A stretch of DNA of 64,000 nt from the human T2T-CHM13v2.0 reference genome, Homo sapiens (GCF_009914755.1 NC_060941.1); one strand, 5' to 3'. Shown: positions 42,437 to 47,903, counted from the stretch's first letter. Numbers and translations are program-made. Notes: generated by a model not told the origin, from the sequence alone.

Positions 42437-43196
42437 ATGGAGAAGGTGGAGTCCCTAGGGGCTGCTGGCGGCCTCAACCGGGATTCCCCTGGAGGGGCAG
42501 CCAGAGGAGTGCCCGCAGCGGTCACAGGAGTCGAGGCAGGCGCTGGGCAGCCCTCCAGAGTAGTCTTGTTTCACGGTTCTGGGCCCCACGTGCACTCAGG
42601 GGGCTCCGTAACTCATAGTACTGGTTCAAGCTGTCCCTCCGGGGGGATAGTGGTCCTTGGTTCCGGGCCCAGTCAGCACCCAAGGGAGGCTGCGAACCAC
42701 AGCCTTGGGTCTGGCAGGAACCCTGGTGGATTCAACATCCCCGGGCCTCGAACCAGTGTATCCAGGGCTTCCAGCCCCGGGCCTGGGGGACCTGCAGGGC
42801 AAGAGGTAAACAGCCCCGGGTGCAGTCCGCACTCTGGGCCAACTTGCTTGAACCCCCAAAACTCCCAAAAGGACCGGCCCCGGAGCATCCTACGAAAGAA
42901 CAGCTCCAACTTGATGCAGAAATCCCCCAATGTGGAGAAGTAAGGAGCCCAGCTCTGCGGGCAGCCAGCCCAGAGTCGGGAGGGTTCAGGACACCTGAGG
43001 GTGGGAGCCAGAAGGAAAGGGGCAGAGCCTTAAGAATGAAGAGTTAGAGTAGGTGAGGGCAATTGAGTGGGAAGTCCGAGGTTCCAGGCTTTCGGGAGAA
43101 GAGCAGGTGCCCCATAAACCGTGGCTGCACAGGACTGTGATTATCATTAAGTCTGACCCCATCCCCAGCCTCAACAAGGTATAAGAAACCTGTTTT

Positions 43197-43840
43197 GAGT
43201 CGGAGTGGTGACTCATGCCTGTAATCCTAGCACTTTGGGAGGCCGAGGTGGGCAGATCACCTGAGGTCAGGAGTTCGAGACCAGCCCGGCCAACATGGTG
43301 AAACCCTGTCCCTACTAAAAATACAAAAATAAGCCGGGTGTGGTGGCAGGCACCTGTAATCCCAGCTACTTGGGAGGCTAAGGCAGGAGAATGGCTTGAA
43401 CCGGGGAGGCAGAGGTTGCAATGAGCTGAGATCACACCATTGCACTCCAGTCTGGAAAACAGAGCAAGACTCCATCTCAAAAAACAAACAAACAACAACA
43501 AAAACTGTTTTGAATGCCACGCAGGGTAGCTCATGCCTGTAATCCCAGCACTTTGGGAGTGCGAGGCAGGCAGATCACGAGGTCAGGAGTTCAAGACCAG
43601 CCTGACCAACATGGTGAAACCCCATCTCTACTAAAAATACAAAAATTAGCCAGGTGTGGTGGCGCACGCCTGTAATCCCAGCTACTCAGGAGGCTGAGGC
43701 AGGAGAATCACTTGAACCCGGGAGGCAGAGGTTGCCGTGAGCTGTGATCGTGCCACTGCACTCCAGCTTGGTCAACAGAGCCAAGATTCCATCTCAAAAC
43801 AAAAACAAAAGCAAAAAACAAAAACAAAAACAAAAAAAAC
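43197..43840 (+). mobile_element. Two tandem Alus inserted at one site
   Basis: Repeated flank aaa(c)ctgttttga at about 43186, 43502 and 43838. Confidence 0.9.
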
Positions 43841-44554
43841 CTGTTTTGAATGACTGGGAAAATGAGGGAGGCCTATGGGGGGGTCATTAGAAGGTCTCCT
43901 CCCCCAGCCCCAGAAGGAAGTCTCAGCACTGGGACGAGATGAATATCCTGGCCACCTACCGCCCTGCTGACAAGGACTATGGATTTATGATGGTGGATGA
44001 GCCCAACACTCCCTACCACAGGTGCTGAGCCCTCAGCCCCAACCCTTCAGTCCAGAGATTCTTCTCTATTTAAAGGAGGGGACAGGTGGAGGAGGCAGAG
44101 CGCCTCAGGGACTGGATACTGCCTGACACCCACCTCCCGGCACTGCTTCCCCCTCCTCTGCAGGCTGCAGGACAGTTTTGAGGACCTCTCTGCCGGCTCC
44201 TCCTGCTCAGTGAATCCTGGAGTGCTGGCAGAGAGGTAAGAGTCCTGCCAGAGATCAGCCGGGTTATGGGGCCTCTTCCTTCCCTCAGCCCTGAATTCAG
44301 GTCTGCAGCGGGTCTGCTTTCTGACACCTGCAGTGGGAGGTGCTACAATTTCCATCAGGCCTGGATGGGGGCAGGGGTCCGCCAATTTGGCCTCGTTTAC
44401 CACCTGTCCCCATTGCTATTTTCTTCTCTTGATGCCCCCAACTAGTCTCCTGCCCCTTCAGGATTGCCATGATGGACAGTATCTGCCCCAGGTTCCGCCA
44501 GGACTGTGCTGACAGGAGCTCAGGGCCTGCAGACAACTTTTCCAAGATACATGA

Positions 44555-45517
44555 TGTAGGGTCCAGCCCTATGGGGCTTAGCGGGTGTTCCCCACCGTGT
44601 GCAGAGACGAGAGATTGTAATAAATTAAGACACAAGACAAAGAGATAAAGAGAAAGCAGCTGGGCCTGGGGGATGACTACCAAGACGCGGAGACCGGTAG
44701 TGGCCCTGAACCACTGGTTGCGCTGATATTTATTGCATACAAGACAAGGGGGCAGGGTAAGGAGGGTGAATCTTCTAAGTGATTGACAAGGTGCAGCAAG
44801 TCACGTGATCACAGGACAGGGGGCCCTTCCCTTTTAGGTAGCCGAAGTAGAGAGAGAAGGCAGCATACGTCAGCGTTTTCTTCTATGCACTGATAAGAAA
44901 GATCAAAGACATTAAGACTTTCACTATTTCTTCTACTGCTCTCTACTACGAATTTCAAAGAGGAACCAGGAGTACGGGAGGAACATGAAAGTGGACAAGG
45001 AGCGTGAGCATTGAAGCACAGCACCACAGGGAGGGGTTTAGGCCTCCGGATGACTGCGGGGAGGCCTGGATAATATCCAGCCTTCCACAAGAAGCTGGTG
45101 GAGCAGAGTGTTCCCTGACTCCTCCAAGGAAAGGAGACTCCCTTTCGCGATCTGCTAAGTAACGGGTGTCTTCCCAGGCACTAGCGTTACCGCTTGACCA
45201 AGGAGCCCTCAAGCGGCCCTTATGCGAGCGTGACAGAAGGTTCACCTCTTGCCTTCTAGGTCACTTCTCACAATGTCCCTTCAGCACCTGACCCTATACC
45301 CGCCGGTTATTCCTAGGTTATATTAGTAATGCAACAAACAGTAATATTAAAAGCTAATGATTAATAATGTCTATAATAATGATTGATAATTGTCCATGAT
45401 CATCTCTATATCTAATTTGTATTATGACTATTCTTATTCTAACTATTTCTTTATTATACTGAAACAGTTTGTGCCTTCAGTCTCTTACCTTGGCACCTAG
45501 GTAATCTTTCGCCCACA
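44555..45517 (-). mobile_element. Solo ERVK-class LTR, LTR13/LTR13A type (963 bp)
   Basis: TG...CA termini (- strand TGTGGGCGAAAGATTACCTAGGTGCC...GGCTGGACCCTACA) match the recalled LTR13 consensus. Perfect 6-bp TSD ACATGA at 44549-44554 and 45518-45523. LTR poly(A) signal on - strand at 44729-44734. Confidence 0.9.
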
Positions 45518-46121
45518 ACATGAGATGAGGGTTGTGGATTGAATGGAAAGGGGGAGGTGGAGCGAGCCTTTGGCAAGAGTGCGGTGGGAAAGCCAAGCTC
45601 TCACCATGGTCACAGACTCCACCGACTTTGACAAGCGCCGCAAGGCACACTATGACAAAGGGAAGTTTCTCAAGGCTCAGAAAAACCAGCCCTTGGAGAA
45701 TGAAGAGGATGAGGATGACAATGGTGGTATTATCAGTATCAGCGGTGGCAGTCAAGGCGTGATGCTGGACCCAGAGCCCAGGCCTGTGCAGAGAGGCTTG
45801 GCAGGAGAACTAGCCAGAGGAGCCAAAGATGAGCCAGGCCTGGTCACCTGGAGGCACATCCTTGAAGCCGAGGGTTAGCGATGGCGGGGCTCCAGGGACT
45901 AGAGGGGGTTGTATTCCAGAGCCCGTTCCTCACTTCTCTACCACAGTCTGTCTTCCTCAGTGGCTATCAGCCCAAGACTCTGCTGCCTGACAGGGAGGTA
46001 ATGCTGGGAAGTAACCCCAGGGAAGAAAGAGGGCAGCTGGAGGAAGGACCCCACTCAGGATAGTCCCCGGAGATTATTGGCTGTTGAGGAACAGAAAGTC
46101 TGATTGGGGGCTGATTTGTTG

Positions 46122-46430
46122 GCCAGGCCCAGTGGCTCACTTCTGTAATCCCAGCACTTTGGGAGGATTGCTTGAGGCCAGAAGTTCAAAACCAGCCTGG
46201 GCAACGTAGGGAGACCTCATCTCTACAAAAAAAGAAAAAGAAAAAAATTGTTTTTAATTAGCCAGGTGTGGTGGCGTGCACCTGTAGTCCAGGCTACTGG
46301 GGAGGCTAAGGTGGGAGGATAGCTTGAGCCCAGGAGTTTGAGGCTGCCGTGAGCGATGATGGCACTAACACATTCCAGCCTGGGTAACATAGCAAGATCT
46401 TGTCTCAAAAAATAAATAAAAAAATAAACA
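46122..46430 (+). mobile_element. AluJ-like element
   Basis: Diverged Alu with A-rich tail. Confidence 0.85.
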
Positions 46431-47903
46431 AAAGTCCGAGACAACCATGGGGGGAGGTGGAGCGGTCACTGAAGTTTTTCTAAAATGGGAAGGGTAAGAG
46501 AAGTCAGTGAGATGAGGATCTGGGGCCTGAGCTTCTCCCCTCTGGTGAGGGCCCACAACAGACACCTGGGAGGCATGGATACACCAGATGGCTAGAAGAC
46601 TTGGATTCATTTGATTGATTCCTCAGATTCCTCCACCTACAGAAATCAGTCCCCCCAGCTGTGGCCACTATCATATTGGGGCAGGAGATTGCTCTGCAGC
46701 ACAAGGAATATGATGGCAAAGGACTATACCTGAGGTCCTGCTCCCACCCAGAGCTTGTAGAGGACGTGGAAGATGAGCATCAGGATGGTGAGAACCTGGG
46801 CAGGCCAGCCTAGGGGGCAGGAGGGCTGGGAATGCACAGCCTGATGGGTACCCGAGCCCTGATCCCTGATTCTAGGCTCCACAAGCTTGACCTAGGTGAT
46901 TGAGAACCCCGTAAGCACTGAAGTCCACCTACTGGACCACATGGGAGGCCCCTTTAGGGATCACAAGGCCACGGAGAGCTCCCTGATGGCAACAATGACA
47001 ACATTGCAGCCTGTTGAGGGCACCAGGCCACCATCTCCCTGGGGCTGTCTCTTGGCAAGCTCCCATCTCCCAGCCCTCCAATTCTTTCAGGCCAGTACAT
47101 CAGCAACAGGTGGAAGGAGAGGCCCTGAACAGCCTCAAGTCCAAGGTCCACATTGGACAGGCGAGGAACCAGGGAGACTCAGAGGCGGTTGGGACCCCCT
47201 CCAGCTTGGCACCACACACTGGCTCCATGCCTCCTCCTTCACTCCTCTGCCACACCACCCCACTCCAGGTATTTCTCTGTCCTCCAAAGACAGTGAGTCT
47301 CAAGTGGTGTCCAGCTGGTGGCTGGGGGGCTGAGCTGGCAAAGCCCAAGGAGTTCAGAGAGGGAGAGTGGAAGCAACCCCAACTCCTCAAGCCAGAACAA
47401 GCACAGCCTGGCACACTGAGCCTGGGCAGAGGCAAGGGGATGCATACACTGGCCAGGGAGGTAGAGGAGCTGAGTGGGGAGGTTCTAGGGGATCCAGAGT
47501 CACATGGACAAGATCTCATGCCTGCTACGAGAAAGCCATGAACTCAAACTCTTCTCTCCAGATGAAACCCTGGGACTTCAATGGACTCAAGAAAAGGAAA
47601 GCAAACAATGGAAAATGGGGCTGGTTGGGGGCGGAGTGGGGGCAACCTTCCCTTCATGACCACCCTATGAATAGAAATAAAGAGCAGAAGAGCAAGAGTC
47701 TGGGAGCTGTGAATCGGGTGCTCAGGCTGGGCCTGCTCAGTCGTTGAGGAGAGGGGAGGAGGAAGGGGAGTTCACACACAGGAACCATGAATATGACGGC
47801 AAAACGAAGAAAGCTGGGAGCAGTCCGGGGTACTGGACTCCACAGGAGCAGGCCCAAGCTGTAGCAGGATGACAATGACTGATGCAATTAATATAGTGAA
47901 CCA

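What the first reader, a model, noticed from the sequence alone, without database searches (positions are those of the whole stretch)
42437..47681. Hidden intron-containing PP1 inhibitor-2 paralogue between NEURL4 and ACAP1 (candidate unitary pseudogene / lineage-specific gene loss)
Seen: spliceable exons with a strong Kozak (gccATGG) and consistent phases (2, 2, 2, 1, 1, 1). They encode, in the right order, counterparts of all classic inhibitor-2 (PPP1R2) elements: SILK-type motif SILR (42884-42895); RVxF-equivalent KSQHW (I-2: KSQKW) followed by [17 protein letters not shown]; the phospho-switch VDEPNTPY (I-2: IDEPSTPY); and the active-site helix [12 protein letters not shown] (I-2: FEMKRKLHYNEG). 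Established: the usual human PPP1R2 copies are intronless retrocopies. Inference: this one keeps introns and has a long Gly/Pro/Ser N-terminal extension and extra C-terminal exons, so it is an old duplicated gene rather than a retrocopy. From memory (unverified), mouse has a coding gene, 2810408A11Rik, in this interval. The ORF track splits the locus into unrelated fragments, so it is easy to miss.
Basis: partly seen in the sequence, partly recalled or inferred. Interest (0 to 1): 0.9.

Follow-up and report, generated by a model that had tools for sequence, protein, structure and literature searches.

The report
Dead human copy of testis PP1 inhibitor
Between NEURL4 and ACAP1 lies the human remnant of an old, intron-containing relative of protein phosphatase inhibitor-2 that is a sperm-cell gene in mouse and most mammals but is broken in several places in the human genome.

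Summary
Window 42437-47681 (+) carries exons of an inhibitor-2 (IPP-2, PF04979) relative: exon 2 scores 60.4 bits and exon 5 scores 24.7 bits.

It is not a retrocopy. Its introns sit where those of PPP1R2 on chr3 sit, with the same phases. It lies upstream of ACAP1 just as PPP1R2 lies upstream of ACAP2.

Gene models of orthologues exist from monotremes to lemurs. They include the rodent '2810408A11Rik' models. The mouse gene is spermatid-specific (PMC3597327).

The human copy is not an intact hidden gene. Exons 1-3 are open, but there are at least five lesions:
- The only usable exon-4 donor is out of phase.
- Exon 6 has a one-base frameshift.
- Exon 7 has a TAG where 22 of 46 relatives have Trp.
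- The exon-7 donor is gone.
- Exon 8 lacks 13 bases.

With the orthologous splice sites the product stops in exon 5 without the inhibitory helix. No catarrhine model of 294 residues or more was found.

Verdict: this is a unitary pseudogene of an ancient I-2 paralogue, a new member of a known kind and of modest interest.

The parts
42437..42939 (+). Exon 1: ATG in gccATGG, open 167 codons plus 2 nt (phase 2). It holds a Gly/Pro/Ser-rich N-terminal extension and a SILK-type motif, SILR, at 42884-42895.
   Evidence: tblastn with pig, alpaca, kangaroo rat and mouse lemur orthologues gave E=1e-36 to 6e-51. The donor GAA|gtaagg scores 7.8, the 53rd percentile of true donors.
43914..44021 (+). Exon 2: the PP1-docking core, with KSQHW (RVxF-pocket motif of I-2), [17 protein letters not shown] and the Thr-Pro switch VDEPNTPY. 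A second acceptor lies 6 nt upstream (43908) and is the one used by the chimpanzee model.
   Evidence: Pfam IPP-2 60.4 bits, E=3.7e-16. PDB 2o8a_I residues 42-78, E=3.6e-17. Junction sequences. The chimpanzee models are P0001 and P0002.
44164..44235 (+). Exon 3, phase 2 in and out. It encodes LQDSFEDLSAGSSCSVNPGVLAE(R). Reading on into intron 3 gives a stop after 228 codons, as in the chimpanzee models.
   Evidence: Acceptor score 12.3 and donor score 10.3.
44462..44555 (+). Exon 4, with lesion 1. It is 94 nt up to the GTAGGG donor, where the orthologues imply 89 nt. The 5 extra nt (44551-44555) put the donor in phase 0, whereas exon 5 needs phase 1.
   Evidence: the relatives read SK-T-[Y/H/Q]|S-x-DF without a break. 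All four phase-1 GTs score below all 68 true donors.
44595..45510 (+). A dispersed repeat of about 915 bp inserted in intron 4. It has TG...CA ends and looks like a solo LTR; the family was not named.
   Evidence: Own-genome DNA search: 609 first-look candidates, of which the 40 scored gave 39 other copies at 90-97% identity over about 915 nt.
45616..45873 (+). Exon 5: the active-site helix of I-2 ([16 protein letters not shown]), an acidic stretch and a linker. The frame is open on its own but is shifted relative to exon 4, so a spliced message reads a TGA at 45760.
   Evidence: Pfam IPP-2 24.7 bits, profile 98-128. tblastn E=1e-20 to 1e-28. Predicted product. The donor AGG|gttagc is in phase 1, like PPP1R2's CAAG|gttaga.
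46627..46787 (+). Exon 6, with lesion 2. DSSTYRNQSP is in one frame and AVATIILGQEIALQHKEYDGKGLYLRSCSHPELVEDVEDEHQD is in another. The net one-base shift sits at the run of six C (46651-46656). The exon holds a second, helix-like repeat (consensus LQRKEYYSKGRYLR) in which the human copy has Tyr changed to Asp.
   Evidence: Two tblastn segments in different frames. Frames and coordinates. The capuchin model reads QSPPALATIIL in a single frame.
46876..47013 (+). Exon 7, with lesions 3 and 4. There is an in-frame TAG at 46893-46895. The phase-1 donor position reads TT (47014-47015) instead of GT; the nearby GT (phase 0) scores -1.7.
   Evidence: At the TAG column, 46 relatives show W in 22, a gap in 20, L in 2, C in 1 and Q in 1.
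47269..47410 (+). Exon 8, with lesion 5. The Trp-rich motif (consensus SGWCQWLVSKGLNWQS) is split between two frames. Human has 8 nt where the orthologues have 21 nt, i.e. 13 nt are missing near 47320.
47562..47681 (+). The last exon, encoding (D)ETLGLQWTQEKESKQWKM. Where the long models of pig, alpaca, bear, opossum, elephant, mouse and Prolemur stop, human reads GGG (47618-47620) and runs on for 13 codons. AATAAA is at 47676-47681.
   Evidence: Acceptor score 11.9.

Best explanation
The locus is the human orthologue of mouse 2810408A11Rik, a second, intron-containing inhibitor-2 gene of mammals, and in human it is a unitary pseudogene.

In other mammals the gene encodes a protein of about 400-510 residues. 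From N to C terminus it contains:
- an N-terminal extension;
- a SILK-type motif;
- the KSQ(H/R)W docking motif;
- the Thr-Pro switch;
- the I-2 active-site helix (…RKAHYxEGKFLK);
- a second, helix-like repeat (LQRKEYYSKGRYLR);
- a Trp-rich C-terminal motif.

By homology it should dock on PP1 and block its active site. In mouse it is made only in post-meiotic spermatids and sits in the acrosome and post-nuclear region of sperm.

The gene arose as a DNA-level duplicate of PPP1R2 together with its ACAP neighbour. This was most likely in the vertebrate genome duplications, which is an inference.

In the human lineage it decayed. The promoter-proximal exons 1-3 are still open. Any message spliced at the orthologous sites is frameshifted after exon 4 and ends in exon 5 (307 codons, stop 114 nt before the next junction). 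It therefore lacks both helices and should be a target of nonsense-mediated decay (inferred). Further lesions lie in exons 6, 7 and 8.
For: Family:
- Pfam IPP-2 matches exon 2 (60.4 bits) and exon 5 (24.7 bits), and exon 2 matches PDB 2o8a_I.
- Five full-length orthologue models give 104.7-110.7 bits over profile positions 1-122 to 1-129 of 130.

Not a retrocopy:
- PPP1R2 on chr3 has intron phases 2,2,2,1,1.
- The split codon before (K/R)KSQxW, the one after TPYH and the one after ILA(R/E) fall at the same aligned residues as here.
- The fourth intron lies within one codon of ours, also in phase 1.
- The retrocopies on C5, C6, C13, C2, C7 and C23 match the profile as one uninterrupted block.

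Synteny:
- ACAP2 exons at C3:197989571-198040542 (-) and PPP1R2 at C3:198226034-198236871 (-) show the same order and orientation as this locus followed by ACAP1.
- Beaver and two Pteropus gene models fuse the orthologue to ACAP1.

Orthologues:
- With the exon-2 query, 71 of 71 candidates passed E<=0.001.
- With the echidna query, 146 of 2133 candidates passed E<=1e-5. Of the 120 listed, 112 carry an organism name, and all of those are mammals from monotremes to lemurs.

Mouse biology: I read the abstract, methods, results and the start of the discussion of PMC3597327.

Human decay:
- At 87 columns that are at least 90% identical among 45 orthologues, the human reading differs at 15. The 45 left out one at a time differ at a mean of 4.7% and a maximum of 12 of 89; the lemurs differ at 3 of 89, 4 of 88 and 7 of 88.
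- The changes include the E of HYxEG, the H of ATYHP and a Tyr of the second repeat.
- With human exon 1 as query, 18 of 2236 candidates of 294 residues or more passed. None is from a catarrhine, and the best is an unnamed record at 76% identity.
- The chimpanzee models stop after exon 3 at 230 and 118 aa.
- RefSeq lists no gene here (hub table).
Against: - Exons 1-3, and each later exon taken alone, keep open frames and good splice sites, so transcription and a truncated product are not excluded.
- All lesions are inferred from protein-to-DNA comparison with gene models that are mostly automatic. I had no DNA from any other primate.
- Only one human haplotype (T2T-CHM13) was read, so fixation of the lesions is not shown.
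- Many orthologue models lack exons 7-8 (20 of 46 have a gap at the TAG column). Lesions 3-5 therefore matter only for the long isoform.
- An open frame of 377-414 codons can be forced with weak sites.
- The age of the duplication rests on synteny alone. No non-mammalian orthologue was seen among the 120 rows listed.
- The human exon 5 / exon 6 repeat similarity is weak on its own (BLASTP E=0.31) and only moderate as profiles (probability 60%, E=8.7e-5 over 25 columns).
Confidence: 0.85

Rival explanations
1. The locus is still a coding gene in human. It would make either the contrived 377-414-residue protein through unusual splice sites, or a shorter protein of 228-307 residues that keeps the SILK-type, KSQHW and Thr-Pro elements but lacks the inhibitory helix. 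Such a protein could bind PP1 without blocking it.
For: Exons 1-3 are open, with a good start context and splice sites inside the range of true sites. NCBI predicts proteins of 230 and 118 aa from the same exons in chimpanzee. An open frame can be assembled.
Against: The in-frame exon-4 donors score below all 68 annotated donors of the window, and the in-frame exon-6 acceptor is at the 4th percentile. The orthologous splicing gives a stop 114 nt upstream of a junction. Fifteen of 87 conserved positions are changed. There are 4 amino-acid differences from chimpanzee in 227 residues, one of them inside the DEMNILATY core of the chimpanzee copy. Long open frames occur on both strands of this GC-rich exon 1, so openness alone is weak evidence. 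RefSeq has no gene model here.
Confidence: 0.07
2. The coding function is lost, but the locus lives on as a non-coding transcript or as an upstream promoter or first exons for read-through into ACAP1.
For: There is a GC-rich promoter-like stretch around 42200-42800 (GC 0.66-0.68). Splice sites of exons 1-4 are preserved. Gene models in beaver and two Pteropus species join the orthologue to ACAP1.
Against: No expression data could be examined. The fusion models may be artefacts of automatic prediction. This reading is compatible with the pseudogene reading rather than opposed to it.
Confidence: 0.1
3. The lesions are polymorphic or private to the CHM13 haplotype, and an intact allele segregates in humans.
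For: Only one haplotype was read.
Against: There are at least five independent lesions plus many replacements at conserved residues. The chimpanzee models are also truncated. No human or other catarrhine protein of 294 residues or more turned up in a database of 5.8 billion sequences.
Confidence: 0.03

Closest known systems
Mouse 2810408A11Rik (NCBI models now titled 'protein phosphatase inhibitor 2-like')
   Same: It is the orthologue, with the same exon order and motifs. tblastn with related mammalian models covers the human locus from exon 1 to the last exon. Rodent relatives carry the RIKEN name. The IPP-2 domain at residues 150-277 in the paper matches 153-268 in the Mus caroli model.
   Different: The mouse gene is expressed as a protein of about 47 kDa in spermatids and sperm (PMC3597327). 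The human copy is frameshifted and carries a nonsense codon.
PPP1R2 (inhibitor-2) on chr3q29
   Same: Same Pfam family. It shares the SILK-type, KSQxW, PxTPY and HY-helix elements, and the intron positions and phases are shared. Both genes lie just upstream of an ACAP gene on the same strand.
   Different: The chr17 family has a long N-terminal extension, a second helix-like repeat, extra C-terminal exons with a Trp-rich motif, and (in mouse) testis-restricted expression. PPP1R2 is intact in human.
PPP1R2 retrocopies (PPP1R2P1-P10, including PPP1R2B/P3 and PPP1R2C/P9)
   Same: They match IPP-2, and some are expressed in testis and sperm (passages of PMC3840573).
   Different: Those are intronless processed copies of the chr3 mRNA: single-block matches, and 'All pseudogenes obtained are intronless' in PMC3840573. 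This locus has introns and is far more diverged. That survey does not mention it (0 occurrences of 'chromosome 17' or '17p').
Human unitary pseudogenes of testis genes (TSSK5, CYCT, TEX16, TEX21, TCAM1)
   Same: The same kind of event: a gene active in mouse male germ cells that is disabled in the human lineage, with no functional copy left (main text of PMC2864566).
   Different: This locus is not in the named table of that paper's main text. Its supplementary lists could not be opened.

Membership tests
IPP-2 / inhibitor-2 family (PF04979) | A match to the Pfam profile above the gathering score | tested here: met
   Exon 2 alone scores 60.4 bits against a cut-off of 25. Exon 5 scores 24.7 bits, just under it. 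Orthologue models score 92-111 bits over almost the whole profile.
IPP-2 / inhibitor-2 family (PF04979) | PP1-docking elements in I-2 order: SILK-type motif, KSQKW-type motif, PxTPY Thr-Pro switch | tested here: met
   SILR at 42884-42895, then KSQHW and VDEPNTPY in exon 2, aligned to 2o8a_I residues 42-78. That these motifs are the PP1 contacts is recalled from the I-2:PP1 structure literature and was not tested here.
IPP-2 / inhibitor-2 family (PF04979) | An inhibitory helix with the HY(N/D)E motif joined in frame to the docking part | tested here: not met
   The helix is encoded (AHYDKG, with the conserved E changed to K). However, exon 4 joins exon 5 out of frame, and the spliced reading stops at 45760.
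IPP-2 / inhibitor-2 family (PF04979) | Binding and inhibition of PP1 | not testable with these tools
Inhibition has not been shown even for the mouse protein in the parts of PMC3597327 that I read.
Duplicated (intron-bearing) paralogue rather than processed retrocopy | Introns at positions and phases homologous to the parent gene | tested here: met
   Three junctions fall at the same aligned residue and phase, a fourth lies within one codon with the same phase, and a fifth has the same phase with a similar G|gttag donor.
Unitary pseudogene | An intact orthologue at the syntenic place in other species | tested here: met
   Models of 390-527 residues exist in 45 records from many mammalian orders. 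ACAP1-fused models in 3 species show adjacency. The mouse protein was detected by antibody. Synteny was not checked on the DNA of other species.
Unitary pseudogene | Disabling lesions in the human sequence | tested here: met
   Phase-shifted exon-4 donor, exon-6 frameshift, TAG at 46893, lost exon-7 donor and a 13-nt gap in exon 8.
Unitary pseudogene | No functional copy of the same gene elsewhere in the genome | tested here: met
   The IPP-2 scan of the whole assembly gives only chr3 PPP1R2, its single-block retrocopies and this locus. The N-terminal part of the beaver orthologue matches only chr17.
Unitary pseudogene | Lesions fixed in the species | not testable with these tools
   Only the CHM13 haplotype is available.
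2R ohnologue pair (PPP1R2 / this gene) | Paralogous neighbours in the same order, and a split older than bony vertebrates | tested here: inconclusive
   The ACAP2-PPP1R2 and ACAP1-locus arrangements mirror each other. However, no non-mammalian orthologue was seen, and no tree with sauropsid or amphibian PPP1R2 could be built. That ACAP1 and ACAP2 predate mammals is recalled, not tested.

The most novel reading that the evidence does not exclude
Mammals carry a second, ancient inhibitor-2 gene, probably an ohnologue duplicated together with ACAP. It has two tandem copies of the PP1 active-site-blocking helix and a conserved Trp-rich tail, and it acts in spermatids. Anthropoid or catarrhine primates, including humans, lost it. 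The loss may have been tolerated because the testis-expressed PPP1R2 retrogenes (PPP1R2C/P9, and PPP1R2B/P3 in hominoids) took over PP1gamma2 control in sperm.
Probability: 0.15. Interest if true: 0.55.

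Novelty: new member of a known kind. Interest (0 to 1): 0.35.

Why it matters
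- It fills an annotation gap. RefSeq on T2T-CHM13 shows nothing between NEURL4 and ACAP1, and the published survey of human PPP1R2-related loci found only intronless copies.
- It tells people working on PP1 control in sperm that the mouse spermatid protein 2810408A11Rik has no working human counterpart. Mouse phenotypes of that gene will therefore not transfer directly to human.
- It adds one more male-germline gene to the list of human-lineage losses.
- The shared introns and the mirrored ACAP neighbour give the inhibitor-2 family an old two-gene history in mammals, rather than one gene plus retrocopies.

Tried and rejected
- **Processed retrocopy:** rejected because the introns are shared with PPP1R2.
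- **Intact hidden gene:** rejected on the splice-phase and frame analysis.
- **Exon-skipping rescue:** exon 3 (phase 2) or exon 4 (phase 0) joined to exons 5, 6 or 7 gives early stops in every case. Exon 4 joined to the alternative last exon or to exon 9 stays open, but in a frame other than the orthologues'.
- **Pfam on other exons:** exons 1, 3, 4, 6 and 7 gave nothing at E<=10.
- **phmmer of exon 5 against the PDB:** only a chance-level hit at E=0.69.
- **BLASTP of human exon 5 against exon 6:** weak, E=0.31. The profile comparison was only moderate, so the 'two helices' idea remains a lead.
- **ESM Atlas with the echidna protein:** returned only IPP-2 clusters labelled Chordata, with no finer taxa and no structure.
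- **Supplements:** those of PMC2864566 were closed. Those of PMC3580494 hold no mention of the gene.
- **Literature searches:** searches found no paper that describes the human locus or an ohnologue of PPP1R2. The one 'PPP1R2' + 'ohnolog' hit I opened refers to PPP1R27.
- **Not attempted:**
  - structure or complex prediction, because the protein is largely disordered and no PP1 chain could be supplied;
  - the representative-protein search, because it returns no organism names and could not settle the taxonomic range.

Full report
**What is there.** The window is human chr17 (T2T-CHM13), and the finding lies in the 7-kb gap between NEURL4 (-) and ACAP1 (+).
- an ATG at 42437 in gccATGG;
- SILR at 42884-42895;
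- an exon encoding [35 protein letters not shown];
- an exon encoding [16 protein letters not shown];
- AATAAA at 47676-47681.

**Family match.**
- Pfam IPP-2 (PF04979) matches the first of these exons at 60.4 bits (E=3.7e-16, profile 1-33). It matches the second at 24.7 bits (E=4e-5, profile 98-128, just under the 25-bit cut-off).
- The other five exon translations gave nothing at E<=10.
- The docking exon aligns to inhibitor-2 in the solved PP1 complex (2o8a_I residues 42-78, E=3.6e-17).
- The helix exon alone does not reach it by phmmer.
- A six-frame scan of the whole assembly with the Pfam model gives 12 matches. They are this locus, two exons of PPP1R2 on chr3, and single-block copies on chromosomes 5, 6, 13, 2, 7, X and 21.

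**It is a real paralogue, not a retrocopy.** I mapped PPP1R2 on chr3 with two I-2 proteins and read its junctions.
- Its intron phases are 2,2,2,1,1.
- The first three introns split the codon two residues before SQKW, the codon right after TPYH and the codon right after ILAR. These are the same aligned residues and the same phase as junctions 42939>43914, 44021>44164 and 44235>44462 here.
- The fourth intron is in phase 1 in both genes and lies within one codon of ours.
- The fifth uses a phase-1 G|gttag donor in both.
- The neighbourhood is mirrored. ACAP2 exons lie at C3:197989571-198040542 on the minus strand, and PPP1R2 lies at C3:198226034-198236871 on the same strand. PPP1R2 is therefore followed by ACAP2 just as this locus is followed by ACAP1.
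- ACAP3 on chr1 has no IPP-2 match beside it.
- I infer that the gene pair was duplicated as a block, most simply in the vertebrate genome duplications. That dating rests on my recollection that ACAP1 and ACAP2 predate mammals, and on no tree.

**Orthologues.**
- The docking exon recovered 71 proteins from 71 candidates.
- The echidna protein recovered 146 at E<=1e-5 from 2133 candidates. Of the 120 listed, 112 carry an organism name and all of those are mammals. They include platypus and echidna, opossum and koala, elephant and tenrec, anteater, many laurasiatherians and rodents, tree shrew, and the lemurs Microcebus and Prolemur and the galago Otolemur.
- Several rodent records are titled 'RIKEN cDNA 2810408A11 gene' or '2810408A11Rik'.
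- By eye, the forward RT-PCR primer printed in PMC3597327 translates to ADEPRTP, which is present in the Mus musculus model P0159.
- Gene models in beaver and two Pteropus species join the orthologue to ACAP1, so the two genes are adjacent there as well.
- Five full-length models give 104.7-110.7 bits to IPP-2 over nearly the whole profile.
- PMC3597327 (abstract, methods, results and the start of the discussion read) reports testis-only mRNA in mouse, a band of about 47 kDa, onset in round spermatids, and signal in the acrosome and post-nuclear region of sperm. PP1 inhibition itself was not assayed in what I read.

**The human copy is broken.** tblastn with six orthologues covers the human locus from exon 1 to the last exon, but in changing frames.

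Exons 1-3 (42437-42939, 43914-44021, 44164-44235) are open and have ordinary splice sites.

To score sites I built a position-weight matrix from the 68 donors and 67 acceptors of the annotated genes in this same window. True sites were scored leave-one-out, and all GT/AG in the window served as decoys.

1. *Exon 4.* It starts at 44462. Its only reasonable donor is GAT|gtaggg (score 4.2, 7th percentile of true donors).
   - This donor is 94 nt downstream and in phase 0. The relatives read 29 codons between the two split codons (89 nt) and continue SK-T-[Y/H/Q]|S-x-DF.
   - Exon 5 (acceptor at 45614-45615) needs phase 1.
   - The four phase-1 GTs available before the first stop score -4.4 to 0.2, below every one of the 68 true donors.
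2. *Exon 6.* DSSTYRNQSP and AVATIILGQEIALQHKEY... lie in different frames with no room for an intron. The shift sits at a run of six C (46651-46656), where the capuchin model reads QSPPALATIIL in one frame.
3. *Exon 7 nonsense.* There is a TAG at 46893-46895. At that column, 46 relatives have W in 22, a gap in 20, L in 2, C in 1 and Q in 1.
4. *Exon 7 donor.* The phase-1 donor position reads TT (47014-47015). The adjacent phase-0 GT scores -1.7.
5. *Exon 8.* The motif ...SSW / LVAGGLSWQS is split between frames. Human has 8 nt where the relatives have 21 nt.
6. *Last exon.* Human reads GGG where seven long models stop.

Using the orthologous sites, the message encodes 307 residues and stops at 45760. 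That is 114 nt before the exon-5 donor, and the product has neither helix. No exon-skipping variant restores the frame.

It still ends at the TAG.

**Relaxed constraint.** From the 169 proteins stored at that point I kept those that met three conditions: both helix motifs (by regular expression), at least 390 residues, and 'SIL' in the first 220 residues. P0003 was set aside, which left 45 records.
- Among these 45, 87 columns are at least 90% identical.
- The human read-through (X at each break) differs at 15 of the 87. The unnamed primate-like record P0003 differs at 17 of 87.
- Left out one at a time, the 45 differ at a mean of 4.7% and a median of 4.5%, with a maximum of 12 of 89. The three strepsirrhines differ at 3 of 89, 4 of 88 and 7 of 88, and the tree shrew at 10 of 91.
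- The human changes include SILK to SILR, ATYHP to ATYRP, HYxEG to HYDKG, and EYY to EYD in the second repeat.
- Six of the changes are shared with P0003, which hints that the relaxation began before the split between that lineage and ours.
- Human and chimpanzee differ at 4 of 227 residues over exons 1-3.
- With human exon 1 as query and only proteins of 294 residues or more as candidates, 18 of 2236 passed. The best is P0003 at 76% identity, the next are non-primates at 63% or less, and none is from a catarrhine.
- The chimpanzee models (230 and 118 aa) both end by reading into intron 3. The capuchin model (166 aa) skips the helix exon.
- Against this reading: many models in other orders also lack exons 7-8, all are predictions, and I saw no primate DNA, no expression data and only one human haplotype.

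**How the family probably works.** This part is inferred from homology. The motifs that contact PP1 in inhibitor-2 are present in order and are conserved across the 45 models. These are a SILK-type motif, the KSQxW docking motif, a Thr-Pro phospho-switch and the HY helix, which (as recalled from the I-2:PP1 structure) lies over the active site.

Downstream, exon 6 encodes LQRKEYYSKGRYLR followed by an acidic run.
- This is among the best-conserved stretches of the protein.
- It aligns in register with the helix region as a profile (hhalign probability 60%, E=8.7e-5, 25 columns, from 50 distinct windows each).
- Exons 5 and 6 are both phase 1-1, so an exon duplication is plausible but not shown.
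- A Trp-rich motif (SGWCQWLVSKGLNWQS) is conserved from echidna to pig. Its role is unknown.

**Comparison with what is known.**
- The survey of human PPP1R2-related loci, PMC3840573 (passages read), blasted the PPP1R2 mRNA. It found ten loci, all intronless, and has no occurrence of 'chromosome 17', '17p' or ACAP.
- The main-text table of human unitary pseudogenes in PMC2864566 does not list this gene.
- Seven full-text searches turned up no description of the human locus.
- I could not see GENCODE or Ensembl, which may already label it.

**Verdict.** The finding is a real feature, correctly recognised as an inhibitor-2 paralogue. It is best explained as a unitary pseudogene, which makes it a new member of a known kind and of modest interest.

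Noticed in passing
window 44595-45510: Intron 4 holds a dispersed repeat of about 915 bp with TG...CA ends, like a solo LTR. There were 609 first-look candidates in the genome, and the 40 scored gave 39 other copies 90-97% identical. The two closest copies (97% and 94%) also lie on chr17, about 245 and 290 kb away. One of the weak phase-1 GTs (exon end 44598) sits at its edge.
   Followed up: partly
window 43195-43500, 43520-43830 and 46120-46420: Alu-like elements, recognised by eye from the sequence: two in intron 1 and one in intron 5 of the decayed gene.
   Followed up: no
window 43900-43914: Two acceptor AGs lie 6 nt apart in front of exon 2 (exon starts 43908 and 43914). The chimpanzee model uses the upstream one (…[12 protein letters not shown]), and the mouse lemur model starts the exon further upstream still.
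   Followed up: partly
window 47530-47700: Two frames of the last exon are open in human, and different orthologue models use different ones. Laurasiatherian, mouse and opossum models read ETLRLRWTQEE..QWKM. Chinchilla, guinea-pig and jerboa models read the other frame (…GLRKRK…). This could be prediction noise or a real dual-frame exon.
   Followed up: no
P0021, P0166, P0167 (beaver and two Pteropus species): Automatic gene models fuse the I-2-like gene to ACAP1 (1179-1185 aa, IPP-2 plus BAR, PH, ArfGAP and ankyrin domains). This suggests read-through transcripts or prediction artefacts.
   Followed up: no
orthologue proteins (exon 6 region; human 46664-46789): A second helix-like repeat, LQRKEYYSKGRYLR plus an acidic run, is very well conserved across mammals. 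It resembles the I-2 inhibitory helix (hhalign probability 60%, E=8.7e-5). Pfam does not detect it.
   Followed up: partly
G000 C1:725365-732240: ACAP3, the third ACAP paralogue, has no IPP-2 match nearby in the whole-genome scan. If the pair was duplicated twice, one I-2 copy left no detectable trace there.
   Followed up: no
P0031, P0075, P0080 compared with placental models: The N-terminal extension grows along the tree. The SILK-type motif is preceded by about 20 residues in echidna, about 55 in marsupials and about 150 in placentals.
   Followed up: no
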